Source: Tubiluchus corallicola
Taxonomy: Eukaryota; Animalia; Priapulida
Assembly: GCA_030141605.1 (NCBI GenBank)
Contig: JAQGDQ010000138.1
Span: 372,001 to 436,000 of the forward strand
Direction of reading: 5' to 3'
DNA: 64,000 nucleotides
The position numbers were made by a program, and so were the translations under genes. This document shows positions 16,223 to 55,800 of this stretch, piece by piece (within the stretch, counting starts at the first letter, position 1; each line of letters opens with the position of its first letter). A model generated the notes under the pieces. The model had not been told where the DNA came from, searched no databases, and was given only the letters and a program-made list of their open reading frames with translations.

Positions 16223-16322
16223 TTAAATCATAAACTAACCCTTCGTATCATGAATAGCATTAATAATGTCACATGATTTTTATTTACAGGAACATGCATT
16301 ATTAAACGAAAATTTATGGTAC

Positions 16323-16415
16323 CTGGACAACCTCTGCCACCAGGTGCTGGTGCTGCAGTGCGACCATCTGGACAACATCCATAAGTACTTTCAGCACAGT
16401 TTCTGATTGTTTGCT
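16323..16415 (-). CDS. AGRN: agrin GCCPDG segment preceding the laminin-EGF domains
   Basis: EQTIRNCAESTYGCCPDGRTAAPAPGGRGCP; 93 nt, phase 1-1. Confidence 0.93.
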
Positions 16416-17568: not shown

Positions 17569-17724
17569 CCTCCCGACAGCATTTTGCAAATACGCCAACA
17601 AGGGAGTGGCAGTAAGAACGGGGAGGGCAATCAACATGGAGTTCTCCTGGCCCACAGTACAGCTCCTCCCCAGTGACCGGATGTTGCAATGGCTGGTCAC
17701 CGTCACAAGCAATCTCCTCAAGTT
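17569..17724 (-). CDS. AGRN: agrin Lustrin/WR1-like cysteine module
   Basis: ELEEIACDGDQPLQHPVTGEELYCGPGELHVDCPPRSYCHSLVGVFAKCCRE; tag acceptor, gtgagg donor; 156 nt, phase 1-1. Confidence 0.9.
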
Positions 17725-18387
17725 CTATACGGTGCAAAAATAAACACATGCATACTAAGCCAAGGTTAATGTGCAAATAAATTATTAAAAAGCATGATCA
17801 GAAATTGCTTAAATAATCTGCTGTTTGTTTGGCCTGCTGACCACCAGACAAGCTGATATAATCAGCTGAAGCAGATTAACTGTCACTTTCTGATCATCGC
17901 ATACGTGCATCAAATCTTAAAAACCTAATTAAAAATAAACAATAACCCACCACTGCTTAATAAGGTTTTAACAAACACTGAATGCAATAATACTGATTAA
18001 ATTTATTAATAAAAATAGACATTTTTAAAGCTACATTTGTATTTATAAATATTGTAATAATCATGCAATATTATCTGCCACCAAAGTGTTAACCAACCAA
18101 ATGAAAGGAATTATTAGCAATTAAGTTAAGGCAAGTTAACATAACACGTAAGTTTGCAGTTAATGTTATTAATTAGAAAAAATAAACTTGCAATTTGCAA
18201 AGCACTGAAAAACTAAAAATTCACAACCTTATGACCAAAAAATATAACTAATATAATTTCCATGCAAAATTATAATTCAGGGGATCAACATTGATTTCTA
18301 CCATGAATTGCAAAATGTTATTTTTAAACAGTCACCCAGGCAAGTTTTGCTAGAATGCTACTAAAACAATGTTTATAACTATCATAC

Positions 18388-18615
18388 CTTCGCACTGATC
18401 AAGGCTGACAACAGTGATTTCTTTCTGCAGTCTACAAGCTTCGCGTCTCATTTCACATTCGTTACCGTACAATTTTCTATCTGAGCCACACACAGACTCT
18501 CTGAAGGCATTACAAGGAAAGTTGCACATGCACTTCTTAGTACCATCACTGTCCAGTTTACATTCACCACCGAACTTACAGCTGTCTTCATCGCACAAAA
18601 ATCCTGAGCCAAAAT
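18388..18615 (-). CDS. AGRN: agrin FS/Kazal domain 8
   Basis: DFGSGFLCDEDSCKFGGEC...VCGSDRKLYGNECEMRREAC; 228 nt. Confidence 0.95.
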
Positions 18616-19742
18616 CTGAAAGTGAAATGCAATAGATAACTTCCTAAAGTAAAAGTGTAGTAAATGTTGTTTTAACATGCAATATAAATAAAAATACGAT
18701 TTCGTGAGACCATACCTGCTAAAAATTTTCATATCTTCTTTCTGTATATATCTCAAAGCATTGTAATTACAAAAGAGTGTAAAGCTGGCTCATTTCATTA
18801 AAAGTGAAAATTGTTGCCGACCAGTGTGTATGGATACAAAATTGCATAACATTGAATCTTACTGTAATTTAGGTTTCATAATGTAACAGTTGCTTTCAGG
18901 CTAGAACAATGGTCGTGTTTTATGTAAAAAGGTTATCTGAAAAACTAGACACTTTTCTGCACAGACTTTGAAAGAAGAATATAGTTTGCCCTATGTTGTT
19001 AGCATTTTAAGAAGAATAATGTTTTAGTCAGTGTTTTAGTTCTTGTTTTGTTACTGAAAGATTAATTTCCAGCAATGTAAAATTCTCTTATATACTGTCT
19101 TCATAGAAGGAATAAAATGTCGTGCTACTAGCAGAATTTTAAAAATGCATCAAAAGACAATTACAAAACAAGCAAAAGATTCATAGAAAGATAAGGATTT
19201 ATGAGTTAAAATGAGGATTTATGAACATCACAAAGAATGAATCATATTAGAAAGGAATTTCCTGTACTTCGAGTTTGATGATAAGTGACGTAATCATGTA
19301 AACAGGAACAAATTCAGAACATCCTGGGAATAACGGCCTCCCACACAAGTTCATCCAAATTATATGGGGCACTTCCACAATTATTTTATCTACCTGTAAA
19401 GTGCAATCTGTAAATTCAAAAACAAAATTGCAAAATTTCTATCAGAAATCCCAATGACTTTCAGTTTTCTGATAGTCCAGTTACTTTTATAGACAGGATG
19501 CGGGTTATTGTAGCAATAAGTAAAGCACTCAACTTTCTTTTCTAGCTGTTATAGTTCCGACTTTATCTGTCCAATAAGATACTACGTGAAGTCGTGAAGC
19601 AAATTTAAATAAGCTTACTCAGCTAGTAATAAGAATTGCATCAAAGCAGTGATAACAGGGAAAATGTTGGTCGAGTACAACTATTTACTAAACGGTCAAC
19701 AGTGCAATAAATTAAAGCATTAATCCCGAATTGTTTACTAAA

Positions 19743-19800
19743 ATGAAGTATGTGTTATTTATGATAGTATTATCAATAGTGCACTATGTCATTTTAACAG
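19743..19800 (+). CDS. nested antisense gene exon 1: signal peptide MKYVLFMIVLSIVHYVILT
   Basis: aaaATG start, 19 mostly hydrophobic codons, consensus CAG|GTGAGT phase-1 donor. Confidence 0.82.
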
Positions 19801-20165
19801 GTGAGTACCATATATAAGCTTGACTTGACACATCTAAATAATGCAACACTGCTAGTAAGATAACAATTAACTGTCTAAGTTTTCCACAGTAAATAAACTG
19901 TCTCCTAATTACAATTCCCAATTTTAAGAGGTGTGAGCTTTTTTTGATTTTTTTATTTCAAATAGCTGGAATTTTAATGGAACCATCACATGTTGAGGCA
20001 ATTTTATTTCTCCTAATTTACAAGTATTCTTTTGCAGTTCTACATCAATGAAAATGTATTGTGTTATACACTATACTAATGCTATTAACACAGTTGAGTT
20101 TCAAGCTATTTGATGTACCAAAAAAGTAGTAAATTAATGTGTAACACATTTCTTTGCCAATGTAG

Positions 20166-20274
20166 AGGGTAAAAGGGAAAAAAGAGGAACATTCAAATAC
20201 TTGGGAGGTTCAGGATGCGTATGCTGGAGAAATCCTTGTTCAGGAATTCACTGCGCACATGGAGAACGATGCAG
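20166..20274 (+). CDS. nested antisense gene exon 2: propeptide/furin site and Cys-rich core
   Basis: Acceptor ttctttgccaatgtag; EGKREKRGTFKYLGGSGCVCWRNPCSGIHCAHGERC; CAG|GTATGC phase-2 donor. Confidence 0.82.
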
Positions 20275-20435
20275 GTATGCATAATCAAGTAAAAAACTTT
20301 TCCAAAGCAGACTGGCAACTGTATAAAAAAATATAATGAGTCTGTCAAGCAGTTCTAGACTAACAGTGTGTATGATAATTTAAAAGAATCAAAATATTGT
20401 ATTTATTACTGTAAAACTTGATTTATTTGGTTCAG

Positions 20436-20616
20436 AAAGTCACGTTGCTGTGAAGGCATGTGTGTACCAAAAAAGCATCGCAGGCCACGTTTGAAGCATT
20501 CAACAAACCACTTAACAAAAGATGAGGGAATTTTGGAAGAAAAAAAACTAACACAATTTTTCAGTAATTGGTTAGAAAATGTGATTCACAAAAAATGTCA
20601 CAGCAGCCAAACTTAG
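20436..20616 (+). CDS. nested antisense gene exon 3: end of Cys core, basic linker and C-terminal tail
   Basis: Acceptor tttatttggttcag, phase 2; RKSRCCEGMCVPKKHRRPRLKHSTNHLTKDEGILEEKKLTQFFSNWLENVIHKKCHSSQT*; TAG at 20614-20616. Confidence 0.8.
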
Positions 20617-21077
20617 CTTTACCTTTCCTTGTTAACGGAAAGTACTATAACTGAATACTGATTGCTTATTATTTATGAAGTAAACACTATTGAAGAAATC
20701 AAGTGTATAAATATGTGTACAAAACTGAGGATATAATCAAACTTTGCTACGTTAGCAAAATCTGAAAATTTTTTTAATCTACATTGTTTTGTACTAGAGT
20801 TATAGTAATTTATAGCACGCTACATAAAGGCTGAAAATAATGCTGAAGATGCAATATACTGTTTAACTACAAATACATATTTCTTGTGCCTGTTGCCAGG
20901 AATATAATTTTACTGATAATATTGAGTGCAACTTGGAAACAGTTGTGGAAAAGCAATGACATGCTGTATCTGTATACCTGTGAGCTCAAAAAGTGAAAAA
21001 AATTTGAAATGTGTATTCCTGAATTTAAGTTTAAGTTTTAAAACTCAAGTTATTTAAGGAGTATGTTCAAAGATGAA

Positions 21078-21083
21078 AATAAA
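21078..21083 (+). terminator. candidate polyadenylation signal of the nested gene
   Basis: AATAAA about 460 nt downstream of the stop codon; the context is AT-rich, so specificity is weak. Confidence 0.3.
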
Positions 21084-21129
21084 AATTCACAGTGGAAGCT
21101 TCCTGGTGTAGTCTTCCATTTCTCCTTAA

Positions 21130-21828
21130 CTCCTTCAGGACCGTAAGCGATTGCAGCATTATGCATGGGTTCATGAAAAACTGCTCTCACTAAGCAGTGA
21201 TTACGTTATATTTGATAATTTGTAGGTTTTTTTCTACTCTTCGCACAATGGTCCTTCATGCAAAATTATAATATGAAATTCACTTGCTTACTTTAGACAA
21301 ATTAAATATCGATTTTTGACGAAAATATTGAAAAATATTTGCACCCTAACAATGTACAGTATCACTTGTGTGGAAACGGCAAATGCAGAAAGTTTCAACT
21401 ATCCAGACACAACACTCTGATAGACTTTGGCATCAAGTCTCCTCTGTTTTTAATGAGAAATTCCTGTTAAAAGACGAAATGACCTTAATTTGTCATTGGC
21501 TGATTGGTTGGTTTTTCCTGGAATAGCAACCAACTTGGTCTGTAGCAAGCAGGCGATCAAGTGTGTAGGATCACGCAAGTGTAAACCAGAGTAAGCCAGA
21601 CTAAGTTACTCGAGAGGCTAAGTCGGAGTGCCTGAAAAGGGCGTGATCTTTTCAATTTTAACCAACTAAATCACTTACAAGTGCTTAAACAAATAGCTTG
21701 AATGGATAGCCGCGATTCTCCTTAATAGAACAGCGCCTAATTTGTACCTAACGTTTGTGCCCATACAGTAGCAGAAAACTCATCTAGGTCTTATAAAATT
21801 TATTTTGAACAGTGCAGTCCTAAAGGAG
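21130..21828. mobile_element. piggyBac-like MITE, copy 2
   Basis: TTAA|CTCCTTCAGGACCG ... AGTCCTAAAGGAG|TTAG; shares internal blocks such as tcatgaaaaactgctctcactaagcag and ctgtagcaagcaggcgatcaa with copy 1. Confidence 0.85.
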
Positions 21829-21973
21829 TTAGAAGTGGTTGGATTAATGAAAGAATCCCATGGATAAGAAACAAGTAAAAACACACTTGTTTTACACTAT
21901 TTTTTCTTTGTTTCTTAATTGTGGGATTTTTTTCATTAATTTCGCTGTTCTAGATTTACATTAACTAGTTTAC

Positions 21974-22195
21974 CTCCAGAACCAGACACTTCAAGATCAT
22001 CACACTCGCCATAGTGCAGTACTTCCACTTCTTGACCATGAATGCAAACAAGTCTCCCTAGATGGCACTCATTGTCATATGTGACCATATCTGTTCCGCA
22101 TACTGGTCTGTAGTCATCAGGACAAATAGTACGACAGACACACTGGCCAGTATCACATACCGCACCAAACTTACAGCTGATATCTCGACATGATT
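21974..22195 (-). CDS. AGRN: agrin FS/Kazal domain 7 plus SGSG glycosaminoglycan site
   Basis: ESCRDISCKFGAVCDTGQCVC...VCGTDMVTYDNECHLGRLVC...ECDDLEVSGSG; 222 nt; not in the ORF track. Confidence 0.93.
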
Positions 22196-22254
22196 CTGAA
22201 ATAAAATAACCTGAATGACAGTACTGTCATAACAAATAAATGATAATAAATATA

Positions 22255-22938
22255 CAGTAGGTGCCGCTTAATAGACTCACTTTGGGGCAGATTTTGACCT
22301 AATTAACCGACTCAGTCATTTAGCTGAAGGTTTAGTATAGTACTACTATACAAGTATGAGTCATCACTCATCGCCTTAGTATGCATTGCAAAGACTTTAA
22401 ATGAATCTTAGAAACGAATTAATGTCAAACATACCTATGTGCAATTACTTAACAAGCATAATTTATATAAATGAATTATCAAAAGAAAAAATCCATTAAA
22501 AATTACAAAAATTCATGCAAGGTCGGGGGTTGCTTCATTTCTTCATGAAGAAGTTTGTTTACGAAATTCTCATACTAATAAAAACATTGAAATCTGTTAC
22601 TGTATGCTGCACATATTCACGCAAGTGATAAATGTTTAGCCTTCTGGAAACAACGAGATTAATTGCAGCGGACAAGCGGGTGATAGACAAAGCAAAACCA
22701 CTATGCTAACATATTGATGCATATTAATAATGTACTGTAAAGTTGTACTTAACGTGACTATTTCTGCTTACATTATAGCACACAAAATCGATGTAAAGAT
22801 GACATAAAAACAGCAAAAACTCTTTGGGCACACACAAGTATCTTATCTTAAGTGCCGGAAGTAAAATATAGAGTCAGTTATGCAGAGTTATTCGAGTCAA
22901 TTACTGACAGTTTTTGTCTACTAAACGGTTTTCCACTG
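22255..22938. mobile_element. Tc1/pogo(Tigger)-like MITE
   Basis: TA|CAGTAGGTGCCGCTTAATAGAC ... GTCTACTAAACGGTTTTCCACTG|TA. Confidence 0.6.
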
Positions 22939-24059
22939 TACTAAACAACTCAAGCATAACATCAATCATTCTCGCTGACTGCACAATCAGCCTGCAAGAT
23001 TTTTCACACCCCTACAGAGCTTACTTAATGCCGTTGGGCTTTGGGATATTAAGCTGCAGCTAAGTATTGCTGGGCATCTAATACTGTTGTGAAAAAATGC
23101 TCAGCTTTTCATTAGTTAGCAGAAGCAATATTGGCCTGTTTCTAGATTTTATTATTGTCAATTGAAATTGCAAGTCAATTAGTGGAAATATATAGTCTAG
23201 TTTCGTTTATTATAGGAAGAAGTGCACAATGTTTATGAGTCGCTGATTAAACTGTTTTGCTATCAATAAAATATGCAGTTTACTTTAGTTTATGACTTAG
23301 ATAAAAAAAAGGATTTGATTAACATTAAAAAAGGACAAACTAACCTAACAAGCTTATATTTTGTACACTTTTACTCAGAACGTCAACTTTTACTAGCTTT
23401 TATTGCCTTTAAATAATAATAATTAATAGACAATAATTGAAATATTGGACTTATGAGTCTGTATTGACGTCAAAGACCTTATTCCGCTTTTAATAATTTA
23501 ATTTTAATATAATGTAAACTATGTATTATATTGTATAATGTGTCTATTTGTGAATATGGAAATAAACTTAAAATTAAAAAGAAATTAAAAAATTTTAAGG
23601 TTAGACCGATGATGCTGCTCTAACGTTTGCAAACATCAAATGGCCTACCGGAAAAAAGCTGAAAAAAATTATAACTTCAGATCATTGAAGCCCGAGTTAG
23701 CAGGTACAAATGATGTAAAAGTTACAGCCTGTGCACCTCCAAGTAGGTCTGCGCATGTTGTAAAGAAAAAGCTAGTCGGCCTTGGTCAGCAATAGATGAG
23801 GCCTAGCCGCAGAGTTGAACTCATCCACGAGAATCTGTGACAACTGTCATGATTACGAGTAAGCGAGCACACTCATGGAAACCCCATATTTAAGCAAAAT
23901 GTTTTCAGAAATTTTCAAGCCAAATGTTTTCTTTTCCGGCCAGTTTTTATAAACCTCAATAAAATCTTCGCGGTTCAAATTAATTCAAACATGGTCAAAA
24001 TTTATATTATATACCAACGAAATATTAGTTAATAATATGCTATTTTTCTGGTTATAGTC

Positions 24060-24250
24060 ATGGTTAAAAGATGCCATTGGCACTTATGTAACTCGGGTAG
24101 TTGATATAATGGTCGTTCATGGAATGGAACAACAAATTTATTCCATTTCCGTAGCCTAACAAAAGGAAAAATACAAAAACTGGATAAATCTTGCAGACGA
24201 GCACATGATCAGTTAAACACAGAAAAAATACATCTCAGGCATGATATGTT
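24060..24250 (+). mobile_element. degenerate THAP zinc-finger relic of a DNA transposon
   Basis: MVKRCHWHLCNSGS*Y..., FIPFP in a shifted frame, then SCRRAHDQLNTEKI; contains stops and frameshifts. Confidence 0.65.
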
Positions 24251-25039
24251 CATATATTTAAAGGCAAGAGGGACTCAAATATTTGTTGCTCATTTATCTT
24301 AAAGCAAGGCTTAAATGGCTTACTTTCTTTATAATAATACTCATGTCTCTACATTTTGTTTAAATTCAAAAGTCATTTTTGGCTACCCGATGGGTTAATT
24401 TTGTGTAAAAATAACTGCTTCTCTGCAAATTAGTGTGTATAAAAAAGCACAGTCAGTTTATCTGCTGATTAGACATTAGTTGTCATATTGTTTACTAAAG
24501 ACAGTTGTTATTCAACGTGAGTTGCTGTCCCGAATGCAGCTGGGCATGCTTACGTCACAGTGGAGGCGGAGCGATAGACAAATATGCTTGATGTCAATTA
24601 CACAAGAGTACCCTATAGGTTTAACTGCAAGCAAAACATGAAAAAACTTGTTCCTCTGTTCCTTCGCAAAATGTGAGAGAAAAGTACTCAATATTTAAAA
24701 TGTGATGTAAAAAGTAATGCTGAAAGCAGTCAAAAATTTACCAAGCCCCTAGGCCTTTTGCAATTAAAAGTAAAACTAATAACTCCATAACTAATAATAT
24801 CTGCTGACACTGCAACCAAAAATAATATGAGTAAAGTTCTTACTGCAAGATTGCATCTTTGCTAACATCTCTTAAGTTACAAATTATTAGCCAAAAAGCA
24901 GAAAATAATTATAAGAGTAACTATTGTGTAATATTGTACCAAATGAAAGTATTACACAGTAATAAAGATCATCAACTTTTACTTTCAAAGTTGCAAAAAG
25001 ATCAAAGTTAACAACAAGAAATATTATTATCGTATATAC

Positions 25040-25154
25040 CACAACGTCCTTGTGATGCGACGACAATGAATTGCTGCTTTCTACAGGCATCTATTCTCAT
25101 TTCACATTCGCTTTCATACGTTTGTCCATTGCTGCCGCACACTGGTGCACTGAC
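25040..25154 (-). CDS. AGRN: agrin FS domain 6, Kazal part
   Basis: VSAPVCGSNGQTYESECEMRIDACRKQQFIVVASQGRC; phase 0-1. Confidence 0.93.
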
Positions 25155-25365
25155 CTGTAAAACACGATAGAAGAAATCAGCTGCATACGCCGTATCCACA
25201 TGCCACTAAGACGAAAATTTAATCTCAAAAAAAGTTTTCCTCAAACACGTATCTCTGAAATTTAAACGAGATTTTGAATAGTGTAATATGTATCCTACTT
25301 CAAGAAACAACAGAAAATTAATATTAGTAACTCGTTTGATTATCAGTCTAACATTAAGACTATAC

Positions 25366-25457
25366 CTTTACGCAAGTGCTGGGACAGACACACATTCCTT
25401 TTGAACCATCGCTCTCACAAATGCTGTAATAATCACAGTGTACATCCTCACAACCAT
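25366..25457 (-). CDS. AGRN: agrin FS domain 6, N-terminal part
   Basis: DGCEDVHCDYYSICESDGSKGMCVCPSTCVK; phase 1-0; not in the ORF track. Confidence 0.92.
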
Positions 25458-25611
25458 CTATATATAAAATTGCAAAGTTAACAAATTATGAAATGTGCAA
25501 TTTCATAGGGTAAAGACCTATAGGGGTAAAGTACATAGGCAATACCAAATGGTCAAAACTGTTTCCAAATGCTACCAAAAATGAAAGTGTCATCGTATTA
25601 TCGTTACTCAC

Positions 25612-25824
25612 CACAGAGCCCTAAACTTGCTGGTGATATGTCAATCTTCTTCAGACATGCTTCTTGTTTTAAGCGACATTTATTCGTGTAGGTGATTCCA
25701 TCTGAACCACACACTGGTTTGTATTCAGAAGTACACGAAGGACACTCACAAGCAGGGACACCATTCTTTACAATGCACATAGCATTGTAATTGCACTGGT
25801 AGTCTTTACAAGGACCTTTATCAT
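25612..25824 (-). CDS. AGRN: agrin FS/Kazal domain 5
   Basis: DDKGPCKDYQCNYNAMC...PVCGSDGITYTNKCRLKQEAC; tttcag acceptor, gtgagt donor; 213 nt. Confidence 0.95.
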
Positions 25825-28800
25825 CTGAAACAGACACCATGATAATACTGTGATTCACAATTGACCATATAGACAGAAACCATCTGATAACATAACAATT
25901 AATGACATAACCAGCATAAAACTTTTTCTTTAAGGTTTCCAATTGGCAGATTTTGATGTCGTTCTAAAAGAATTATATTTATCAGATTGGAGGAAAAAAG
26001 CCGAGGAGCACAATTCCAAGAAAATTAACGTAGTACCAATTCTCTACATTAATGTAGGCAATTAAATATTTTGACGTCAACTTTTTCCTCAGAATTCAAT
26101 TAAAGCAATTTCAGACAATTAGCATAGACACTGTAAATTCAATTCTTGAAAAAAACATGCTGGCCACAGAGCAATAAAATCTCTGAACAACACGAACTTA
26201 TTAAAGTTCTTTTACATGCAATTCACTTAAGTAGACCGGGATTTCAACAGTATAAATATTCACTGCACACATTAATTTTTGCTGCATACAGTAAAGCCAT
26301 CAAGTTTTTTAAAACTAGTCTAATCATTCAATTGTGTTTGCTTAAATTCAATTCAAGAATGATGTATTTGAAAAAAATACAATTTAAGTTTTTAGATTTC
26401 AAGATTGTTTATTTCACATTGGCACAAATACAAAATTAATACATTAAAAAAAAGTTTTTCAATAATTCAATGGTTAACAAACGGTAAGATACCCGATAAG
26501 AAGCAAATTCTGAAAAAATGATTAACTACCCACTCAACTGATTCATATTGCTGGGCATTAAGCCAAGCCAAGCTTGTAAAATGCCCTGATTGTCAAATTC
26601 CAAGTACATTTGACATAAAAATAGACCAAGTAGACCTATATACATTTGCATAAAAAAATGAGAGGAAAGGATGTGAACATGGGAGTGAAGATGAGAAGTT
26701 AATGATGATGGGTGAAAGTTGACAACATGATGAAACAAAATAAAAAGTTATACAAAACTAGTAAAGTGAAATAACAATAAGAATATACATTTGTTCAAGA
26801 TCAAGTGGTAAATTAAGAGCGCAGATCATTCTAGCGAAAGCTGATATAAAATGGACAATTAAAACTGCCCAAATTGACCGTTTGATTTTATTATTTTGAC
26901 TGTCTAGTTATGTCTAAATATTTATACGTACATGAGGAAGACATGGGTCTAAACAGATTTTTAAAACATACCGACACTAACACTGTGTTTTGTAGTTCAA
27001 GAATGGTGTTGCTTATACACGAATCTGAACAGTGAAAACACAATAATATTTTTTACTACGGCTACTGTCTCACAACAGGTTTGTATAAATTTCACTACAG
27101 CCATCAACAGCAAGGTTTAGTGGTCTTTTTCTGAATGGCAATCACAGACAAAAAGAGTTCCGAAAAGTCTTTGCAACAAATAACTAAGAAACAACGGTGT
27201 GTAAATCGAATCAAGCGGCTACCTAATCAGCTTTCAAAATTACAGGATTAACATTTAACTTGAATATGAGTTAGGAAACTACAATATTCCACTGTACTAG
27301 CAAATGATGAAGTAAACCGGAGAATGCCAAATAACGAACTAAAATTTTAATTTAATGTTGGCAATTAGTATCCTTAAAACTAGTAGTTCAAACACACTTG
27401 CATTTATAACAAAAGTTTAGGTTTTCATGGAAGAATTTTCCATTCAATCATCTTCTGTACTCAACAGCAGTTTTGTTTCATTAATTCCCAAATGTCTTTC
27501 ATGTTTGAGAATTATTTTTATTTTGTAATGTCATATTATATATTTCGCATTTATACAAAAGTATGTCATACTTCAGTTCATGCATCAATAAAAAGACTAG
27601 TCACAAAAGGCACACATTCTCTGTTTTCCCTGAATATGAGGCTAGTTGAGAACAGCAATTTTAAATAATTTGCCCAATTACTTGAGAAATATAAAGTTAT
27701 GTTATTACCCAAGGTCTCTGGCCCTACCTCACTAAACTTATGTTTTTCAGGAAGTAGTGAATGAATGACGAATTTGAAAAGTCTGAAAACAACCTAAAAA
27801 TGGAAAATAATTTTTAACTGCAAATGTCTCAATTGCGTAAATTACTAGATTATAGTCTATATATTATACATACAGTTTCCCAGCTACCAGCGCTAGTGAA
27901 TAGCCAATAAAAGCTAGTGAAATACTGGTTTATTGCACAATAAAGGTGTTGCCACACAACATTTTTCATATTCTAATTATTCTGGTTTGGAGTTGTGTTA
28001 CATAGACAAAGCTCAGTCGCATAGAGGCCTACTTATAATAATAAACGTATGGTATGGCACAAAGTACTTGCAAATTGTGTGGGTTGTAAATTTATGATTA
28101 AGGATTTATTCACATGCTACCATCACTATTATTCTTGCCAGTTAATCCTCTGCAGAATTACTGAACTGCTAATCCATATAGCTTATCGTCGCATACAGCT
28201 GGCAAACACCATCAACTGTTCATTTAGTAGGACTCCTAATTCTGAATGCCCTCAATGGGCATTACGGCCACACAAAAGCTCAATAAATGCGCTTGGCAAA
28301 GCATGAAAAGAGTAAAAACAGCAATGGAATTTACTCAATTTAGCAATTGACTCTCTCAAATTCTTATCCGCTTGTTTTCTATATAGAAGCACTAAATTTT
28401 CACGCATTTTTTGTTTCAGCTAATCTTCTGTACTTACCCCAAACAAGTACACATAAATTCTATTGTATAGATCAAAACAGTTGAAAAGCATAAGCAGTAA
28501 ATTTATTATATAAGAAATAAGAGAATTTAAAAATAGACAAAAGGCCAAAAATATCTGCTATCTTTTTCCAAAAAAAAATTATATCCATAAAAGTTTTGCA
28601 CATTCAGTAAGAAAACACGTTTATCGATGATACAGATAGACTTAAAAAAAGTCTGGAGGACCGTTTGATTTGCACTGCAATTTCAGAAAATTTAATATCA
28701 GTTATTTTGTTTTTATTCATTCTAGCAATTAACCTACGTTACTTGTTACGTTCTAAAACTGATGCGTTAAATACAAAAAATATTAATAAGACTCCCATGA

Positions 28801-29647
28801 GATGGAAATCTGGCCGTACAATCCCCTATTCAAATAGTCCATCAAGTGCTGATAATTCAATAATGATGGCAGCTAACTAATCACTGGGCCCAAACAACAA
28901 AAAAATCTTTCAAAACAGTTTCTAATCAGCTTTTTTATGCGTTTTCATCAATTAACTGTTGACTGTTAACTGTTGTGTATAAAGAATTTTTATAGTTATT
29001 TTCTAAAAAGATTAAATTTATGTTAACTAAATTTACTGAATTTTCATTCACAACAAATTATTTCCTATACACTAAAAGACATGCCTACTCAAAAAAAAAA
29101 CTACAAGTCTAGAAAGTTGTGCATCCCTAAAAACATTAACTGAAATGTCAAAATATAAAAGCCTAAAAGTAAACTGCATCAAAAGAGCATTAACCAACAT
29201 CCGTAAATTTCAACTTCTGCTTTACAGCAGACAGAATTGATTTGTTGGTAAAACAAATGTGTATAATAAAGCAACAGAAAAATTTTCACCTATGCTGGAG
29301 TTTACTACCGTGCAGCATTGTACAAACAAAAATAAAATACATAAAAACCACTTAGTTCACCCTTAATGTATTATGCATGAAAAACTATTGAATTTATGGT
29401 GCACATGTAACTCATATGACATGAGTACGACATAAACGCACTGTGTCACATGGTCTTGAAACTTTAGCAATGCTGGCTCTGCAGAGTAGTCGGAGAGTAA
29501 ACCATTTAATAGGTTTATCTTTTTTGATTTAGTTATCCAGACAAAATATGCAAGTAAAAGCTTTTTACACACAATCTGAAAGGCTTGGGTACTTTAATCC
29601 AGTGCAGCAGTCCATTCTCAATAATAAGCTTTTCAGTACATATGTAC

Positions 29648-29672
29648 ATATATATATATATATATATATATA
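29648..29672. repeat. (TA)n microsatellite
   Basis: Directly visible. Confidence 0.9.
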
Positions 29673-29762
29673 GAGGAGCTTAATTTATTGCCAGGACATA
29701 AAAAATGTTTTATTATTTAAAAATTACTACTTGCTTGATATAGGTTGCAGAAAAAATCTTAC

Positions 29763-29978
29763 CACAACTGCCACTATGTCTGATACTGACATGGCGTTTG
29801 TTAAAACATGCTTGCCTCTTGAGTTCACATTCATTTTCATATGTCTGACCATCAGTACCACACACTAACCGCACTACCTTCTCACAAGATGGTGGACATC
29901 TGCAGGTGGCTGTCTTGTCCCTGCTTACTTCACACTCCATGCCATACGAACACTGGACGGAGTTACATGGGTTTACTC
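29763..29978 (-). CDS. AGRN: agrin FS/Kazal domain 4
   Basis: GVNPCNSVQCSYGMEC...VCGTDGQTYENECELKRQAC; tttcag acceptor, gtaaga donor; 216 nt. Confidence 0.95.
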
Positions 29979-30996
29979 CTGAAAAAGTTTAAGCCAACAT
30001 ATTCAAGTTATCGTAACTTATTCACTACTAGAATTTTAAAACTGCTATCCAAAAATCGAGAAAAAGTTAAGGGTCACCTGGAAACCAAAAGATAACGAAA
30101 ATCAGGATGTGTCCAGCCTTATCCCTTTATTAGGGGACCTAATCACTGCATAACCACTGTAGGGTTTACTAGCTCCAAAACGGAAATCAAGGCAACAAAT
30201 ACAGCGTCAGTTAAATGGTCTGTAACATTACTGTTGAGACCAAGCAATGCCTAACATTACTGAAGTTTTCTGAACAATTAGTTACTGTAATTGCGCCATT
30301 AGTGAGCTGATGAAAACGCAGCTGCTGGATGATCCATAACTTCAAATTAAGCACAGACAAATACGAATTTGGCGAAAACAGCATCTAATTAATTACAAGA
30401 TATAGGTAAATGAATATGTAGTAAATTCTATTGCGAATAAATTGGCCATTTGGGGCTTCTATAGGAAACTGACCAAGTTTCTGCCTGTTTCGTTTCTCAT
30501 TTAGCTAAGAAATGGTTTTTGTTTTTTGTACATAATGGCAGAAGACGATTTTTATTTAAAACGCGGATTGGTACACATAATGCCATTGTTGCTGATTGAC
30601 AAACACAATTTTAAATCCAAATTGTCTTTATGCATGAATTCTTTAGAAAAGCAGTCTCAAGAAGGTATATGTGTCTTTTTAAACTTAAACCCTTTCCAGC
30701 TTACAATGTAGTTGAATGTGCAACTCATTGGTTGTTCAGACCTGAGATTTTTATTGCAAAGTCAGATCTACTAAATTACTAAAATATGCATACTAAAATA
30801 AGCACACGCATACATAGGCCTATAAGAAAAATAAAACACACATTATACGAAACTACGTACACTAACTGTAATAGCACTAAGAGTGACTACAATTGTAAAC
30901 TGAATGGTGCAATGATGCCAAATCTACAAATTAAAGGTACAAAAAGATATTAATGCAATTTTAATTAAATTTCATTAATTTCTATGTTGCACTTAC

Positions 30997-31212
30997 CTGC
31001 GTCGCATTCGCCATTATACAACACTCTTAAAATCTTTCTTTCTACGCAAGCTTCAGACTTCATGATACATTCGTTGGGATAAGTCTTGCCATTTGAGGCA
31101 CAGACAGGATCATGTTCCAAGGTGCACAGTTGATGACATTTGCAAACAGGATTCCGTCTGTCATCCAGTTGACAAGCAAAGCCGTTTTCACATTGCACAT
31201 CAGCGCATGGAT
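30997..31212 (-). CDS. AGRN: agrin FS/Kazal domain 3
   Basis: DPCADVQCENGFAC...PVCASNGKTYPNECIMKSEAC; ttttag acceptor, gtaagt donor; 216 nt. Confidence 0.95.
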
Positions 31213-39544: not shown

Positions 39545-39781
39545 CACATTTGTTTTTGTACAGTACAGTGATATTTCGTTTGCTCTCACACGCAGCTTTG
39601 TTGAGTTCACACATATTATTATAATCCTTTCCATCCGAGCCACATACGACCGAGCTATCAGTACTGTCGCCATAGTCATAACACATCTTCGGACACATGC
39701 AATGAGCCGACTGGCCATCCGGTGACCGTTCACACTCAGCGCCGTACGAGCAGATCACTCCATCACAGGGATCCCTAGAAT
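39545..39781 (-). CDS. AGRN: agrin FS/Kazal domain 2 (internal acceptor form)
   Basis: DSRDPCDGVICSYGAEC...VCGSDGKDYNNMCELNKAAC; 237 nt, phase 1-1 using a weak aaag acceptor; donor gtatgt. Confidence 0.9.
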
Positions 39782-39845
39782 CTTTATTAAATAGATAACA
39801 ACAGTCAGTCAATGAGACAAGCAACAATGATGTTACAAATATCAT
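39782..39845 (-). CDS. AGRN: in-frame 5' extension of the FS2 exon encoding a signal-peptide-like segment MIFVTSLLLVSLTDCCYLFNK
   Basis: ATG in a caaaaATG context 9 nt downstream of a strong ttactttgtttatttcag acceptor (boundary 39854); hydrophobic core, in frame with FS2. Confidence 0.65.
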
Positions 39846-42030
39846 TTTTGTGCTCTGAAATAAACAAAGTAACTGCGGCAAGAAAGAAACTAGCCACTTT
39901 TTCCACTTCATCTCACGACTTGATTTGCATTGGAAGCAGTTAGCTCGCTTACTACTACATCCTTCAAAACGATACTCCCAACTATCATCGTTTCAAGGCC
40001 GTTTAAGGAGTCATAACACTTGTTACTCCATAGTACGTATCCATTATCAACATTCAACATTTGTCCGCCTGCCATGATGACAGCATTAACCAAAGTCCGA
40101 ACTAATGCAGAAACTTAACACATTCCACATTGTCTTCAATTTCACAGAGATGTCCTCAAGCACTCAGATAGCAATGTACTAACAGCACTTTGCCTATAAT
40201 CTCCTGCTCATACACCACGCAGCAAGCGCCAGTAGGCTTCCCCAAGTAGAGGAGAGAACTCTATATCTGTGAGTTGGCACTAAAGCCATGACAGAATAAC
40301 TGTTCTTGGCAGATAATACTACTTTTACAGCGTTTTCCACTAAACACCACAATTAAAAACTTAAAGGTCGGTTTTAGAAGGGCGTTTCAATAAATGAGAT
40401 TCACGTTTATGGCTTCACACTACTCAGTAGCTACGCCCCTAGCATCAGAGGCTCAGTTAAATGTTGCAGCGAAGATCAATATGCATTTAATAGCCGAAGA
40501 ACATCAACATCAGCGCTGCCTGAACTGATGGAATTATAAGTGCATTAATTTTTAATAATCGTCTTCTCAGATGCTCGCAAATGTGGCGTATTTGAGCAAA
40601 GAAATGGCAAGAAACGACTAACAGAACGGTTGGAAATTAGTGTAACTACAGGTAAAGTCAAGAACACTGACGACTAGATGGATGAGTATTTTTTTGTCTT
40701 TCATAATGATTTCAAAAGACGCCCTTTGAGAATATCTAGCCAACAACAATGTTCCAGATCGGTTTGGGCCTTGCTGTTCTGTCACTTCTGTTTGACTCTT
40801 TACGCTAATCTAACAACATCTTTACTAGTTCAGGACCTAGGCTTGATGATAATCCGATAAGCGGTTACAAAGTTAAATGAAATCAAGTCCGAAAAATTGC
40901 CAGTTTTGCCGCTTTTAACAGTTACTATTAATACTCAGTTTACTGAGTGATTGTGGGTCCATTGGCTGTTTTTAGTGAACTCTTCTAGTAAAACTAAAGC
41001 AATTACTATATTCAAGAAAGCCCCCAATTATATTATTATAATTGCTAAACTTGAATATGATTATGTAGTTATAACGTAACTCATTAACTATATACGTATA
41101 TCTATATCTATATGTGTAATGTGTATGTGTATGTGCATAATGCATATGTATATGTATATGAGAAATACTGTGGACCGAGGATAGTGTGTATACTGCATAG
41201 CAACGATTTCTTCTCAAAATGGACAGCGCGAACAATAATCCTGCTCTATAAATTATCCAGGGCGCTCGAAATGTCTGAAATGTCACTGACTCAGTTACAA
41301 TAAATGCCATTAGATTTATGTTGTCTTGGTTTCAGTATGAGCCTCTATGAATAAAGGCTACAGATGATATATTAAATTGGAAGGTGTTAAATGAAGGCAC
41401 GATTATTCCTGAAGTGACCACAGATAGTCTAGAAGACGTCTGGCTCTATTATGGTAGCTGCACGTACTCACGAAGAGAAAACTTTATTGGTCTTAATCAA
41501 GAATACTTCTCACGCTTAACATTTTCTTTGAGATCAACCCTTCCTATTATTGAAAGTGAGAACACTTTTCATATTGAATATCACATGAAAGTTATATGAA
41601 GAAAAAAAACATTTGGAAAATTTTAAATGGCCATACACAATGGAAGGATGTGCAAATTTCATGAAATCACTAGTTTGCCGAATTAATGGCAATTTGAATC
41701 ACGAATTCACAACAAATAACAGCCGACCATCTACAGCTGCAACTCAGCTTTGCTAAATGCAAATTTGTATTGCTATCTACCATTACTCATAATCTTCCCT
41801 CATCAAACTAACCTACTTTGCGTTTTGAGTGGAATAAGTCATGACGAATGAGTTTAACTCATCGCCGCTTCTGTAAAACCATTTTTTGCCTCCCGAACCT
41901 CAAATACAATGCTAGAAATTCGAGTTGATTGTCTTTACTACAGACAAAGCAAGTACCTGTAGGAATTTCAGAAGAATTAGTCTGGAAGCATAGCCGATAA
42001 ATTTAGTCAGACCACACCGGAATGTCAAAA

Positions 42031-42424: not shown

Positions 42425-42458
<34 letters not shown>

Positions 42459-50522: not shown

Positions 50523-50558
50523 CTGGTGGTGGTGGAGGCTTATAAGAAAATGGTAAAT
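50523..50558 (-). CDS. AGRN: agrin 36-nt Pro-rich linker microexon (xLPFSYKPPPPP)
   Basis: Acceptor gttttttttcag, donor gtaggt; phase 1-1, open, and joins FS1 as ...PPPPP-E-PCEVKYC. Confidence 0.85.
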
Positions 50559-52682
50559 CTGAAAAAAAACAATGAATGTTTAGGATATTTATTTAAGTAA
50601 CTTAACCATAATCTACACTCTACAGTTTTACATTTGCAAGTTACGAAATTACAAATTTACCATAAAAATATTTTTTTTAAACAAGACAGAGGAACAATAG
50701 CAATTTAAAAAACACAAAAATTTAGAAATTAACTATATGTGATGTACAAGAAATAAAAAAACTAGCCTAAATTTCAACGATGATAAGAACTGACCAGTAT
50801 TCAGTGACATTCACCCCATGATCTAAGGTCGAAGGCATTTTACCATTGGGTTTAAGCCTCTACTGTACGTGTATATCAGTAATTTTCGTGAATCTTAGAT
50901 ATTGTACTTCTTGAATTATTTGATATTGTATTAGAAACATATTTTAAGGGACAAAAATAGACGATTTGTAAGACTTGAAGTTTTCACCAGTCAAAGCAAA
51001 ATCTTTATTTAAAATCGTAGTACACAATACACAGGCGTTGGATTAAGAACAAATAAAGCTCAAAGAGATATACTAGTACTTAGTCTATTTGCATGCCTGT
51101 CAGTAAGTGATAATAAATCGAATTGAACCAGGTTAAGCCTGATTTCAAAAAAGTTTATGGATGGAGTAAAAAGAAACTTTGGCGTATGAAGAAAGAGGAT
51201 CCCACATTTAAAACTCTGTTAAAAAAGAGAAATGTGTAAAAATGTCGGCTTGATAGAGTACGTCTTACAGGACTTGAGACGTCTTACAAGAGAGTAAGTG
51301 TTGGTTCGTGGTAACAATTTGGGGAGCATCACGTTATTGTTTTAGTACTAGCGTGCGTAGACAGGATCCGATAATTATTATAAGCTTATATGCAAAAAAA
51401 TGCGATATCAACGAGCAGCTTTCTTGAAGGTAAAGGTCATTAACCATTGTCATATAGTACTTAGAACTCTTGCTAATTCTGGCAAACCAAAATCCAAATT
51501 AAACGTCAATTTAATCTAACCCACAATCAGTGGGAAACATGCACACACTACTGCACTAGTTGTGATTATACAGTGTACATTGTGCGCTGTACAGGCTTAT
51601 TTAGTGTAGGCTTATCAACTGAAACAGATAAGCTTATTTAAACTATCGCGTGTAAAAAGTAAAAAAACAGGGCTATTTTCAGAAAATCTATATATACGTG
51701 TGCAAACAAAATTTGAAATATTCCTAAGTATTGCTATAGCTAAGTCGGGTTCCCTACCAAGTTCACTCACAACTAATCGCTCGCAGCCCTAGAAGTTGCG
51801 AGATGGCTTTTCATGGGGTGAGACAAATAGGCCTAAAGAATATGATTCTTTTCTTCATTTTATTTTATATATTACTGACTACTGGCACCACTGTTTTCCA
51901 ATTAGCACCTAGTCACCAAATCTTCTAATATCGATTTGTTTACATTAGTCTACGATTTTTGTTTCTATTAAACCTGTCCTATAAGCCAGAATACTATCGT
52001 TCAAATGAATTTTATTTGTTATTATCTTGTTTGCATTGTTAAAACATTAATTCGTCAAAAAGCACTTAACGAACTTAATAAGGTATATTAGCTCATAACA
52101 GGTATTTCGGCTATGAGCTTATTTTTAGTTCAATTTAATTACTGTTATGTGGTTCGATTAAAAATAAATTAGTTAGTTATTCGAAATTTGACTTTTTGTT
52201 TTATATTTAGAACATGGTATTTCGGTATAGAGAGTACAAAAATTAAACATTTTCCGGGGTTGTCCTGCATAGTAAAGATTGTGAACCCCAAGCAAAGTGC
52301 AATATAGACCTACATGCATGCATACAAATGTATGCCCGACTAACACAATCAATATTTAACAAAGAAAAGCTAAAGCATCTACAGCCAGATTTCATTTCAG
52401 TAAACACTAGCACATGCAGTTTCATAAACCATTATGAAAAAACCACGAGGAGATGCAGTAAACTAAAAACTTAGCTAAAGATACCGCAGCATCTGTTCGC
52501 TAAATATAAATTGGGATAGATGGCGATCCAAGCCCTGTAAACAGTGCCGGTAATAGTATATTAAGCGTGTATTATTCATAACATGTGACACAACTTAAAA
52601 GAAAGAATTGCCTCCCCAAGAAAAGGAGCGACTACTTCATACTCTCGTTAAACCTTTTGTTAAAGCTAATACACGTACGTAC

Positions 52683-52854
52683 ATTTATACAACACCATAC
52701 ATCCAAGAATAAGGCTTAGCAGAGCCAGTAATAAACACACCATGTACAGCTTATTATTGTTTTTCTTTTTCACCATAGCAACCACCAACAGTGGTGGCAC
52801 ATTGCCTTTTTCCGCTGCCGGAATAGTTAGAGTTTGGGTTCTCCACTTCGTCAT
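52683..52854 (-). CDS. AGRN: candidate alternative first exon of agrin, type II transmembrane anchor
   Basis: ATG (A at -3) opens MTKWRTQTLTIPAAEKGNVPPLLVVAMVKKKNNNKLYMVCLLLALLSLILGCMVLYK. A basic cluster precedes a ~20-aa hydrophobic stretch. The exon ends at a phase-1 GTACGT donor that fits the next (phase-1) exon. Confidence 0.7.
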
Positions 52855-55800
52855 TATGAAACTTTCAATGTGTGCAAGAATGCGCTAGAATCAATCACAA
52901 AAATTTCACAATTATAAATAGATTATACGAGCAATGACTTTGTCCTTTCGTCTAAACATTCGAATCGTGTTTTTTCACTTTTTGCAAGTAAGAAGAGCAG
53001 CGAACACAAAGTACGAAAGCTTCTTCCAAGCAGTACTAAAATAATTTTCTGTTTTAAAGGTAAATATGCTGTTGTTAAAACGAGTCGCAAACAAACACAA
53101 AGATGAATGCAACGGAAACAAGCAAGCACCCAACTAACCCATAATTAGTTGTTTCTAACCATAAAAAGAATATTACTACACGACTTTCTCGCTCAAATTT
53201 CACAAAATTACTATTTAAATTTCTAACACAAAAGGTCATCGAACATTGTGGTCGACCGCGCTAAAATTGAGCTGTTACCTCGCATTCAAGCGGGCCTACT
53301 CAAGTAGGCCTACACACACGTCAAGTGAAACCATTGAGTCGTACAGTTAAAAGCTTCTACCGCATTGTCTAACGCGTCATGTCCTAATTCAGGCACTCGC
53401 TATCCTTGCTGGCATTTGCAGATGCAGAAGCTTGTTCAAAGCTACCAACATTAGGTCTTTAACTTGCAATGTTCTTCATTAATGCAGTAAATCTTAATCA
53501 GCACAACATTCACTAGTTTTTCAAAAACCTTCTATCCCTGAAATGGTTTCAGTTGCAGCTACAGAAGCACTAGAAGTTAAAAGCTAAAATTAATAAACTC
53601 CAATCACACTTGATTCACAGCAAATTCCTGTTTTTTGTACGTTTTCTCAACGCGCAATAAGTCTACTGCAAAGTTCTGTTTGCATGTCACGCAAGGCTAG
53701 TAGACTGAAATATATCTGCACAGTCAACACCCTGAGTTATTATTTTCCGCACGTCTGTGTACCTGGACAGGTGAACGAGAGGCGATGCTGCGGTTTTGCA
53801 CCTGATAAACCGCTCGTGAACTTCGTGCATGCCGTATAAATACAATTAGCTACCTTAAAGGGAAATTACCTATTCAGCATCCTGCCATACGTACACATGT
53901 AGTTAATAGTCAATTTTTACAAGATAACTTCCGGGGGCCTGCACATAACAAGCTAATAACTGCTGCAGAACAATTCCAACATGTCTTATTGTAACGACAA
54001 CATTATACAGGAGTAGTAAATCAACTGCTAATAGTCAGGTGGTTTATTCAGATCGCCGACGGGAAGAAATGCTCACCACGAATTCCAGCAAAATATCCGG
54101 TGACCTTGGGTTAACAAAAACCATCATCCTGAAATTTATCACTCAAAAATTCATCACGGATGATAGATTTCCTACTCAATTTGATCGGTACGTCCCATTT
54201 TGTGTAAAAAGATCCCTTGAAAATTAATATTCAATCACGAGTTCTTCATTATTTTGGTAAACCTGCAATCAGAGCCATGCCACCTGTTTACAGGCACTCG
54301 TAGCGAAGCACGCATGGAACTTTCTATTAAGAGTGATTTGATTGAATTTGACGTCCTCACAAGAGCATTATGTTGAATGAATTATGATCATCATACCAGT
54401 CTTTCCTGTCCTGATGCACAAATATTACCTTACAAATGCCTCGTTTGACCTTAAATGGTTCGAATAACTTATAGTTTAACCTTTATAGTTTTCATATAAC
54501 TTTACATTATATTATTCACTTATAATAAGAAAAAAATCAATAATGTTTCGGGATCACAGAAAATAAATACGCAAATAGTCTACGGTAATAATAAGCAATT
54601 ATGCCATCGTAATTTATAAATTGCATAAATTATGCAAAGACACAAGCGTTTGTTTGCACTGGTAATAACAATGTACCGTATACTCGGTAAACAGCACCTA
54701 ATATATTATACAGCTTAGTAAACAGTAGTTGCTGTACAGAATTTTACTAAACTCTTGCAATAAAATGGGCATGTAAAATCGTTCGAGAACACATTAATCG
54801 CAGCGAGAAAACGCTAGTGAAAACGGCCTTTACATACTGCTGAGAAGCAAGAGCATCAAGAACACAAATAAAAGAAATAAAGTTAGCATAGAATACTTTA
54901 CTCATAAGCACAATAAGAATTACTCATTAATTATTAACACTAAATACAGCTACAGGCAGCTTAAATCAACGTATTTATATAAATGCAAAATATCAATTGA
55001 TTTACAATAAACCAAAAAGTAGGTGAAATATATTACGCAACTAGTAACAATTAACGAATTTTTTTCTATTGCATGCGTTCGCCAAAAACGACTGTAGATG
55101 AGAAAAAATGCAGTTAAATAGTTAAATGCTGTGGATAGCAAATAGAATCAATTGCACCTTGTCACAGTACAGAACCGGTAATTATGTATCCCTAGTATAA
55201 AAATAATTTGACTCCCTTTTTCATAAACGCAGTGTCACCTACTTGTGATCTTACAGAAGAAATAATCATATCAGCAACTGAAAATGATATAAAAATCAAG
55301 ACTGGTGAGTAATGCTCAATAGTGTATAAAAATATGGCAAATTGCAAATATGTCCTTGCAAAGCGGTTAAAGGGCGTAAATCATGAAGTGGTAATAACAG
55401 CATAACAAAAAATTGAGTTACTATCAATGATCCTGCTACAATTCCGTGCAATTAAAAAATATCGCGTTCAGCAAGCCCACGAACACGCCGAACCGTTTCG
55501 GAATGCCAGGTAAAAACGACAAAACAGAATGTTCCTTATACCGCCCAATATGTCACTTTACAAAACGCCCCTCAGTGGTGAGGGCATGAAAAGAACACGT
55601 TTAAAAAATTCCAGGCCAAAAACTTGCTAAAATGAAGAACAACCTGGCATGAAAGCCACACAGTGTGAGCTACGTCGCTGATACAATGGATGAAAAAACA
55701 GCTTGAGAGTAAAGATAAATATGCTTTTCAACAATAATGCATTGCAGCTACTTTACTTTCCAAGCACTTGCTCCAATCCAACATTATACTTAAGCCTTGA

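What the first reader, a model, noticed from the sequence alone, without database searches (positions are those of the whole stretch)
52683..52854. Invertebrate transmembrane-agrin: alternative first exon with a type II signal anchor
Seen: an ATG-initiated 57-codon exon with a KKK cluster followed by LYMVCLLLALLSLILGCMVLY, ending in a phase-1 GTACGT donor about 2.1 kb upstream of the Pro-rich microexon. Established: vertebrate agrin has secreted NtA (LN) and type II transmembrane (SN/TM) isoforms from alternative first exons. Inference: this invertebrate has its own membrane-tethered agrin isoform from an intronic promoter, either homologous to the vertebrate exon or convergent.
Basis: partly seen in the sequence, partly recalled or inferred. 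Interest (0 to 1): 0.75.

Follow-up and report, generated by a model that had tools for sequence, protein, structure and literature searches.

The report
Membrane-anchored agrin start, shared across animals
This invertebrate's agrin gene holds a short exon that likely swaps the usual secreted start of the protein for a membrane anchor; database gene models show the same kind of anchor in arthropods, molluscs, an annelid, echinoderms and vertebrates, so it is probably an old animal feature, already noted by prediction for two insects, not an invention of this species.

Summary
In detail: a 172-nt exon (57 codons + 1 nt; basic patch, 21-residue apolar stretch, phase-1 donor) lies 2124 nt upstream of the 36-nt linker exon of a protostome agrin and joins it in frame. 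It is the only such candidate in 19.9 kb; chance 0.24 at loose thresholds, 0.019 with type II charge, 0.0003-0.008 with two family marks added. Agrin models of insects, crustaceans, chelicerates, molluscs, an annelid, echinoderms and vertebrates carry a transmembrane start at the same linker, in eight invertebrate species as an alternative to NtA. The splice itself was not seen; a contig of a run guessed to be RNA covers most of the exon. Type II transmembrane agrin was already predicted in print for Apis and Tribolium (PMC2874008, Table S1), so this is a new member of a known kind. Single origin in the bilaterian ancestor is likely (about 0.6) but sequence similarity to the vertebrate exon is not demonstrable. 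The gene also has a third, signal-peptide start on the second follistatin exon.

The parts
52683..52854 (-). Coding part of the candidate transmembrane (SN-like) first exon: 57 codons + 1 nt; ATG at 52854 (A at -3), second in-frame ATG (Met27) at 52776 (G at -3 and +4)
52750..52770 (-). Basic patch Lys29-31 and Lys35, predicted cytoplasmic; net +4 in the 15 residues before the apolar stretch against +1 after it
52687..52749 (-). 21-residue uncharged stretch (residues 36-56), predicted signal anchor; Gly51 is 7 residues before the junction Tyr
52677..52682 (-). Phase-1 donor GTACGT preceded by T (6.25 bits on the gene's own donor matrix)
52855..53048 (-). Probable 5' untranslated leader, covered in one piece with 126 nt of the coding part by a contig of run X2 (RNA is a guess); all 19 gap letters of that contig lie here
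   Evidence: tables 4 and 8
53467..53667 (-). Second stretch covered by an X2 contig (13 other letters, no gaps); leader or promoter-proximal DNA, not resolved
   Evidence: table 8
50523..50558 (-). 36-nt phase 1-1 Pro-rich linker exon, the first common exon; acceptor 12.5 bits, donor 9.5 bits
43930..44139 (-). Follistatin/Kazal exon 1
39782..39854 (-). 5' extension of follistatin exon 2: strong acceptor at 39854, ATG at 39845, signal-peptide-like stretch and Cys-Tyr-x-Phe motif; probable third N-terminus
39545..39781 (-). Follistatin/Kazal exon 2 (common part; weak in-frame acceptor at 39781)
877..31212 (-). Remaining agrin exons in the window: seven more Kazal exons or exon parts, two laminin-EGF, EB, EGF and laminin G exons

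Best explanation
The 172-nt exon likely encodes an uncleaved signal anchor that, when spliced in frame onto the Pro-rich linker exon, would make a type II membrane form of agrin, and this exon type probably descends from the bilaterian ancestor. Shown: the open frame, basic patch, apolar stretch, phase-1 donor and in-frame fit to the downstream exons. Inferred: a promoter upstream of 53048 starts the transcript; SRP takes the apolar stretch; the lysines hold the short N-terminal tail (35 residues from Met1, 9 from Met27) in the cytoplasm (positive-inside rule, recalled); the follistatin, laminin-EGF and laminin G domains stay tethered on the cell surface instead of being secreted and bound to basement-membrane laminin through NtA. 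By analogy with mouse SN agrin it would be the cell-surface, possibly neuronal, form. With the NtA start (inferred, outside the window) and the signal-peptide start on follistatin exon 2 the gene would have a three-way choice of N-terminus.
For: Anatomy and frame. Null tests. Homologues with a transmembrane stretch directly before the same linker: Cydia, Neocloeon, Cryptotermes, beetles, wasps and bees, Penaeus and other decapods, Amphibalanus, Lepeophtheirus, Tachypleus, Centruroides, Ornithodoros, Liolophura, Haliotis, Octopus, Lamellibrachia, Anneissia, Antedon, Patiria, Acanthaster, Asterias, and vertebrates. NtA and transmembrane isoforms sharing the same linker within one species: Centruroides sculpturatus, C. 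vittatus, Antedon, Acanthaster, Asterias, Liolophura, Haliotis rufescens, Octopus sinensis. In 23 hand-picked rows the helix ends in Tyr in 21, and all 19 invertebrate rows have G, S or A seven residues before it; the window has both (the rows are related, not independent). The window's apolar core fits the 19-row invertebrate profile in register better than its shuffles (19.8 against 6.5 +- 4.1, p 0.0025; four shifted registers p 0.21-0.99). A contig of run X2 (RNA guessed) covers 52729-53048 with 29 other letters, and its 19 gap letters all fall upstream of the ATG (about three gap clusters, so weak, roughly p 0.2). Mouse layout LN exons, single SN exon, common exons: PMC2189804 (passages).
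Against: No read or contig shows the 52683-50558 splice or a start site. The donor is middling, and a stronger phase-0 GT (9.0 bits, 52740) and another phase-1 GT (5.6 bits, 52700) lie inside the helix. HMMs built from the homologous helices did not rank this frame first among 2132 six-frame peptides (ranks 8, 17, 26, 65, 88), so sequence likeness alone does not pick it out. Likeness to the vertebrate helix is not significant in register (p 0.92; p 0.026 only at one of five shifts), and 11 of 12 cross-phylum tests among the homologues were not significant. In the four lophotrochozoans the Tyr lies 6-9 residues before the junction, and decapods and copepods have His, Asn or Gly there. No transmembrane isoform was seen in Branchiostoma (15 of 84 members listed), Glandiceps (2 of 2), Lingula (7 of 7), Lineus (2 of 2), Babylonia (4 of 4), Gigantopelta (3 of 3), Holothuria (4 of 4) or Caenorhabditis (6 of 6), and 5' RACE found one isoform in C. 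elegans (PMC1939731). The homologues are predicted models; their intron positions were inferred from isoform pairs, not read from DNA. No NtA exon is in the window.
Confidence: 0.8

Rival explanations
1. The exon is real and makes a type II agrin, but such exons arose several times: any new promoter in the NtA-linker intron must use the same phase-1 acceptor, and Tyr and small residues are favoured at helix ends anyway.
For: Little cross-phylum sequence likeness; vertebrate helix not in register; junction shifted in lophotrochozoans and tails from about 10 to over 400 residues; no isoform seen in amphioxus, hemichordate, brachiopod or nematode clusters.
Against: Present in all three bilaterian superphyla and in many classes of each; T, not the consensus G, before the donor in most; G/S/A at -7 in 19 of 19 invertebrate rows; window core fits three groups in the same register at p 0.01-0.03. 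Gaps may be missing annotation.
Confidence: 0.3
2. The exon is used but the apolar stretch is a long cleavable signal peptide (start at Met27), giving a secreted agrin without NtA.
For: From Met27 the layout is 9 polar residues, then the apolar stretch; small residues (Gly51, Cys52) could form a cleavage site (rule recalled). No SignalP or Phobius run was possible.
Against: 21 uncharged residues run up to Lys57 with no polar cleavage region; charge difference -3; insect homologues have tails of 130-500 residues that exclude a signal peptide and were called N-in by TMHMM; mouse SN agrin stays on the cell (PMC2189804).
Confidence: 0.07
3. The frame is chance hydrophobic intron DNA that is never spliced.
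For: A loose hit is expected 0.24 times per 19.9 kb; donor middling; no splice seen.
Against: 0.019 with charge, 0.0003-0.008 with family marks not used to find it; homologues predict such an exon in exactly this intron and it is the only candidate in the window; covered by an X2 contig without coding gaps.
Confidence: 0.06
4. The frame is the 3' part of a longer start: an upstream exon splices into the acceptor at 52884 and gives a longer cytoplasmic tail, as in insects and crustaceans.
For: In-frame AG at 52885 scoring 7.5 bits; 13 upstream ATGs between 53667 and 52855 make a long unspliced leader awkward; long tails in pancrustaceans.
Against: The X2 contig runs unbroken across 52885 up to 53048; chelicerate, echinoderm, mollusc and vertebrate tails are short. 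This variant would still be a type II agrin.
Confidence: 0.07

Closest known systems
Vertebrate SN / TM agrin (Burgess et al. 2000, PMC2189804, abstract and passages read; Neumann et al. 2001, seen only as a citation in PMC1939731)
   Same: Single short exon upstream of the first common exon; short tail, one apolar stretch, Tyr, then the Pro-rich linker and follistatin 1.
   Different: No significant residue-level likeness in register; intron to the linker 2.1 kb against 0.4 kb in mouse; NtA exons not within 11 kb upstream (8 kb in mouse); no SEA hit among the exons scanned; expression unknown.
Predicted type II transmembrane agrins of Apis mellifera and Tribolium castaneum (Banyai et al. 2010, PMC2874008, Table S1 read whole, main text in passages)
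   Same: TM then follistatin repeats, N-in by TMHMM; the printed sequences have Gly seven residues before the Tyr, as here.
   Different: That paper gives TM as the insects' only listed architecture and, in the passages read, does not treat it as an alternative exon shared across phyla; the insect tails are longer; this animal is outside the arthropods sampled.
RefSeq 'agrin-like' isoforms with a transmembrane start, e.g. XP_023239925.1 (Centruroides), XP_076328006.1 (Tachypleus), XP_071945471.1 (Antedon), XP_022100570.1 (Acanthaster), XP_064610787.1 (Liolophura), XP_036359771.1 (Octopus)
   Same: Same position before the linker, same helix end; crinoid and horseshoe-crab junctions read almost alike.
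   Different: Automatic models without a label as membrane forms; tails unrelated in sequence; lophotrochozoan junction lies 6-9 residues further on.
C. elegans AGR-1 (Hrus et al. 2007, PMC1939731, passages read)
   Same: Protostome agrin with follistatin, laminin-EGF and laminin G domains.
   Different: One 5' isoform with a signal sequence by RACE; no transmembrane start.

Membership tests
Agrin | Tandem follistatin/Kazal domains, two laminin-EGF, one more Kazal, then EGF and laminin G domains in order | tested here: met
   Pfam on 20 frames: 9 Kazal, 2 laminin-EGF, EB, 2 EGF, 2 laminin G hits; 4 frames without hit; collinear tblastn chains with named agrins at 37-53% identity
Agrin | NtA exons upstream | tested here: inconclusive
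   An NtA profile from 11 homologues and tblastn found nothing in the window (best E 1.1-1.2); the window ends 11 kb upstream and no genome is held
SN/TM agrin isoform | Single exon with ATG, short tail and one transmembrane stretch, upstream of the first common exon | tested here: met
SN/TM agrin isoform | In-frame join to the Pro-rich linker at the site where NtA joins | tested here: met
   Frame open through three follistatin exons; junction residue Tyr against Asp/Asn/Gly in NtA isoforms of homologues
SN/TM agrin isoform | Spliced transcript exists | tested here: inconclusive
   X2 contig covers 52729-53048 but ends before the donor; no joint listed; RNA is a guess
SN/TM agrin isoform | Uncleaved anchor with N-in orientation | tested here: inconclusive
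   Hydrophobicity 2.71 and charge +4 / +1 predict it; no topology predictor or experiment
SN/TM agrin isoform | Own promoter in the intron; mainly neural expression | not testable with these tools
   Shown for mouse in PMC2189804; no raw RNA reads here
SN/TM agrin isoform | Sequence homology to the vertebrate SN exon | tested here: inconclusive
   p 0.92 in register, 0.026 at one of five shifts; fit to invertebrate helices p 0.0025

The most novel reading that the evidence does not exclude
The secreted-versus-membrane switch of agrin is not a vertebrate neural invention: one transmembrane first exon has sat in the NtA-linker intron since the bilaterian ancestor, and protostomes add a third start (signal peptide on follistatin exon 2, whose conserved Cys-Tyr-x-Phe codons double as the pyrimidine tract of the internal acceptor), so that promoter choice sorts agrin to basement membrane, cell surface or free diffusion. 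This window extends the anchor exon to a protostome lineage outside the arthropods and lophotrochozoans sampled.
Probability: 0.55. Interest if true: 0.55.

Novelty: new member of a known kind. Interest (0 to 1): 0.4.

Why it matters
Membrane agrin is studied as the brain form of vertebrates, and PMC2874008 says practically nothing is known of agrin function in invertebrates. The two model invertebrates mislead: Drosophila lacks agrin (PMC2874008) and C. elegans showed one secreted form (PMC1939731). If the anchor exon is ancestral, the cell-surface role predates the vertebrate AChR-clustering inserts and neurotrypsin sites, which that paper finds only in vertebrates, and can be tested isoform by isoform in beetles, moths, abalone, octopus or sea stars. 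The single exon in this one animal is ordinary; the value lies in the cross-phylum pattern, which already sits unlabelled in public annotation.

Tried and rejected
No whole genome is held, so NtA exons beyond the window could not be sought. No RNA holder listed: 2 runs, none on record as RNA. The 8 loose letters at 53048 match no upstream exon end with a good donor (5 matches, best 3.3 bits), so a spliced leader is not supported. A word search with the follistatin 2 frame found 0 of 54 candidates. Pfam has no family for the exon. The Atlas gave no answer. HMMs of the homologous helices do not single out the exon. The IQ-TREE run did not finish; FastTree was used, and the two trees differ in where the window attaches, so only 'outside the sampled arthropod, lophotrochozoan and deuterostome clades' is claimed. 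My first count took the chiton Tyr as the junction residue; one search showed it lies before the junction, and I corrected it. A first exon join had an off-by-one acceptor, corrected. In one search I classed 86 of the 120 hits (most vertebrates left out): 37 TM-like (one, Chionoecetes, a low-complexity artefact), 7 signal-peptide starts, 42 other, 26 of 132 were TM-like. Two papers on TM-agrin function (PMC2823450, PMC2728160) were not held. Earlier scan notes held nothing on this exon type.

Full report
Observation. The minus strand at 52854-52683 gives 57 codons plus one T before GTACGT. Lys29-31 and Lys35 precede 21 uncharged residues (36-56). The 36-nt linker exon lies at 50558-50523, 2124 nt downstream. 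Joined to it and to follistatin exons 1-3 the frame stays open, with Tyr at the first junction. An in-frame stop lies 30 nt upstream of the ATG (frame opens at 52884). A second ATG (Met27, 52776) has a strong context.

The gene. Pfam finds nine Kazal, two laminin-EGF, an EB, two EGF and two laminin G hits in order among 20 frames (4 without hit), and tblastn chains named agrins along the window (best Tachypleus, Centruroides, Chamberlinius, Owenia and Liolophura, 49-52%). FastTree puts it outside the sampled arthropod (99), lophotrochozoan (99) and deuterostome (100) clades, in an open fork with the two protostome clades (91); one search attached it differently. It is probably a protostome of an unsampled lineage. 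No NtA exon is in the window.

Chance. The exon was the only hit in 64000-44141 at four thresholds; 107.9 kb of control gave 0 strict and 8 loose hits. Simulated intron DNA (70.5 Mb) gives 0.24 loose hits per 19.9 kb, 0.019 with stronger hydrophobicity and net charge +2, 0.0076 with the two family marks alone and 0.0003 with everything. The donor is middling (6.25 bits; 10 of 29 donors of the gene are lower), and competing GTs lie at 52740 (9.0, phase 0), 52700 (5.6, phase 1) and 52678 (6.3, phase 2).

Reads. Two runs were listed, neither on record as RNA. On 43700-55900, X1 covers intron pieces with few differences. X2 (RNA guessed) has, among its listed pieces, repeats and two others: 52729-53048 (29 other letters, 19 gap letters) and 53467-53667 (13 other letters, no gaps). 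The nine gap rows for the first add up to 19 letters and all lie at 52910-53005, upstream of the ATG. They form about three clusters, so this is weak. The contig ends inside the helix; no splice is shown. Whether it reflects transcription or conservation in a relative, it points to function, modestly.

Homologues. A phmmer search with follistatin exon 1, two word searches and three cluster look-ups gave agrins of many phyla. A transmembrane stretch directly before the linker occurs in insects, decapods, a barnacle, a copepod, chelicerates, molluscs, the annelid Lamellibrachia, crinoids, sea stars and vertebrates (26 of 132; 37 of 86, one an artefact). Eight invertebrate species have both NtA and transmembrane isoforms on the same linker (Centruroides sculpturatus, C. 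vittatus, Antedon, Acanthaster, Asterias, Liolophura, Haliotis rufescens, Octopus sinensis). In arthropods, echinoderms and vertebrates the residue at the switch point is mostly Tyr in the anchor form and Asp, Asn or Gly in the NtA form, which fits a phase-1 intron; this is inferred from proteins. No anchor isoform was seen in Branchiostoma (15 of 84 listed), Glandiceps, Lingula, Lineus, Babylonia, Gigantopelta, Holothuria or Caenorhabditis clusters. That RefSeq models usually rest on RNA-seq is recalled, not checked.

Homology or convergence. In 23 rows chosen by hand, 21 end the helix in Tyr; all 19 invertebrate rows have G, S or A seven residues earlier, as does the window; vertebrates have Val or Leu there and Ala one place before. 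The window's core fits the invertebrate profile in register (p 0.0025; lophotrochozoans 0.034, chelicerates 0.09, pancrustaceans 0.026, echinoderms 0.012). Against: vertebrates p 0.92 in register; vertebrate against echinoderm p 0.017 at one of 16 group-shift tests; 11 of 12 cross-phylum tests among homologues not significant; HMMs rank the exon 8th to 88th of 2132 peptides; lophotrochozoan junctions lie 6-9 residues later; decapods and copepods lack the Tyr. Shuffling does not remove features common to all helix ends. I put one origin among invertebrates at about 0.7 and including vertebrates at about 0.6.

Mechanism. Shown: the anatomy. Inferred: a promoter upstream of 53048; an uncleaved anchor with the tail inside (charge +4 before, +1 after; positive-inside rule recalled); a cell-tethered ectodomain lacking the laminin-binding NtA. 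In mouse, SN agrin comes from a single exon between the LN exons and the common exons, stays cell-associated and is mostly neural (PMC2189804, abstract and passages). Roles in filopodia are known to me from reference titles in PMC2874008 only; growth-factor binding by the follistatin region is that paper's result (passages). None of this is tested for this animal.

Third start. Follistatin exon 2 has a strong acceptor at 39854 (13.9 bits) leading to an ATG at 39845 and a signal-peptide-like stretch ending in Cys-Tyr-x-Phe, and a weak in-frame acceptor at 39781 (1.8). Follistatin exon 1 joined to 39854 meets a stop after 17 codons. The same start is in Tachypleus X5, Haliotis rufescens X6, Ridgeia, Littorina, Anabrus, Gryllus and others; P0128 aligns across it (E 1.6e-23). 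H. rufescens has all three starts.

Prior knowledge. PMC2874008 Table S1 (whole text read) lists Apis and Tribolium agrin as type II transmembrane proteins by TMHMM; its main text (passages) gives two alternative N-termini for vertebrates. PMC1939731 (passages) found one isoform in C. elegans. Nine searches (listings only apart from the three papers named) showed no paper describing the anchor as an alternative exon across phyla or the third start; most subscription journals are not searched, Neumann 2001 was not read, and supplements of other papers were not seen.

Verdict. Observation confirmed; reading supported. Real, used exon about 0.9; type II anchor with likely ancient origin 0.8 for the anchor and about 0.6 for the origin. 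New member of a known kind. Interest 0.4.

Noticed in passing
window 39545-39911, minus strand: Follistatin exon 2 carries a third probable N-terminus (signal peptide + Cys-Tyr-x-Phe) as a 5' extension, with two acceptors 73 nt apart (39854 strong, 39781 weak, AAG); the conserved motif's codons supply the pyrimidines of the inner acceptor. A further in-frame ATG lies at 39911. Widespread in protostome models.
   Followed up: partly
window 39854 and upstream intron 39855-43929: The strong acceptor needs an upstream, probably non-coding, first exon and a promoter inside the follistatin 1-2 intron; not located. Mis-splicing of follistatin 1 to it gives an early stop.
   Followed up: no
window 53467-53667 and 52855-53667: Second X2-covered stretch upstream of the exon; 13 upstream ATGs in 53667-52855 and unused-looking acceptors at 53583 (10.4 bits) and 53537 (7.6) suggest a spliced or regulated leader.
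   Followed up: partly
window 42042-42236 and 43129-43457: Two arrays of a 15-16 nt unit in opposite orientation flank a block of trinucleotide repeats (42387-42694) in the follistatin 1-2 intron; looks like a foldback or helitron-type repeat element (label recalled, not tested).
   Followed up: no
window 47272-47566, 48164-48375, 45990-46044: Multi-copy repeats: high summed depth and many loose ends in both runs.
   Followed up: no
homologues P0319, P0383, P0469, P0490: Lophotrochozoan anchor exons share a well-conserved, Cys- and aromatic-rich helix across chiton, abalone, octopus and a tubeworm, and run 6-9 residues past the Tyr before the junction.
   Followed up: partly
homologues P0343, P0358, P0369, P0125, P0126: Insect and copepod anchor forms have cytoplasmic tails of 130-500 residues in many independent models, which argues against the mis-annotated start proposed for bee and beetle in PMC2874008 Table S1.
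   Followed up: no
window 10822-10980, 16312-16415, 17555-17725: Extra cysteine-rich exons (EB module by Pfam; two short modules without Pfam hit or not scanned) and no SEA hit among the frames scanned, as in other invertebrate agrins.
   Followed up: no
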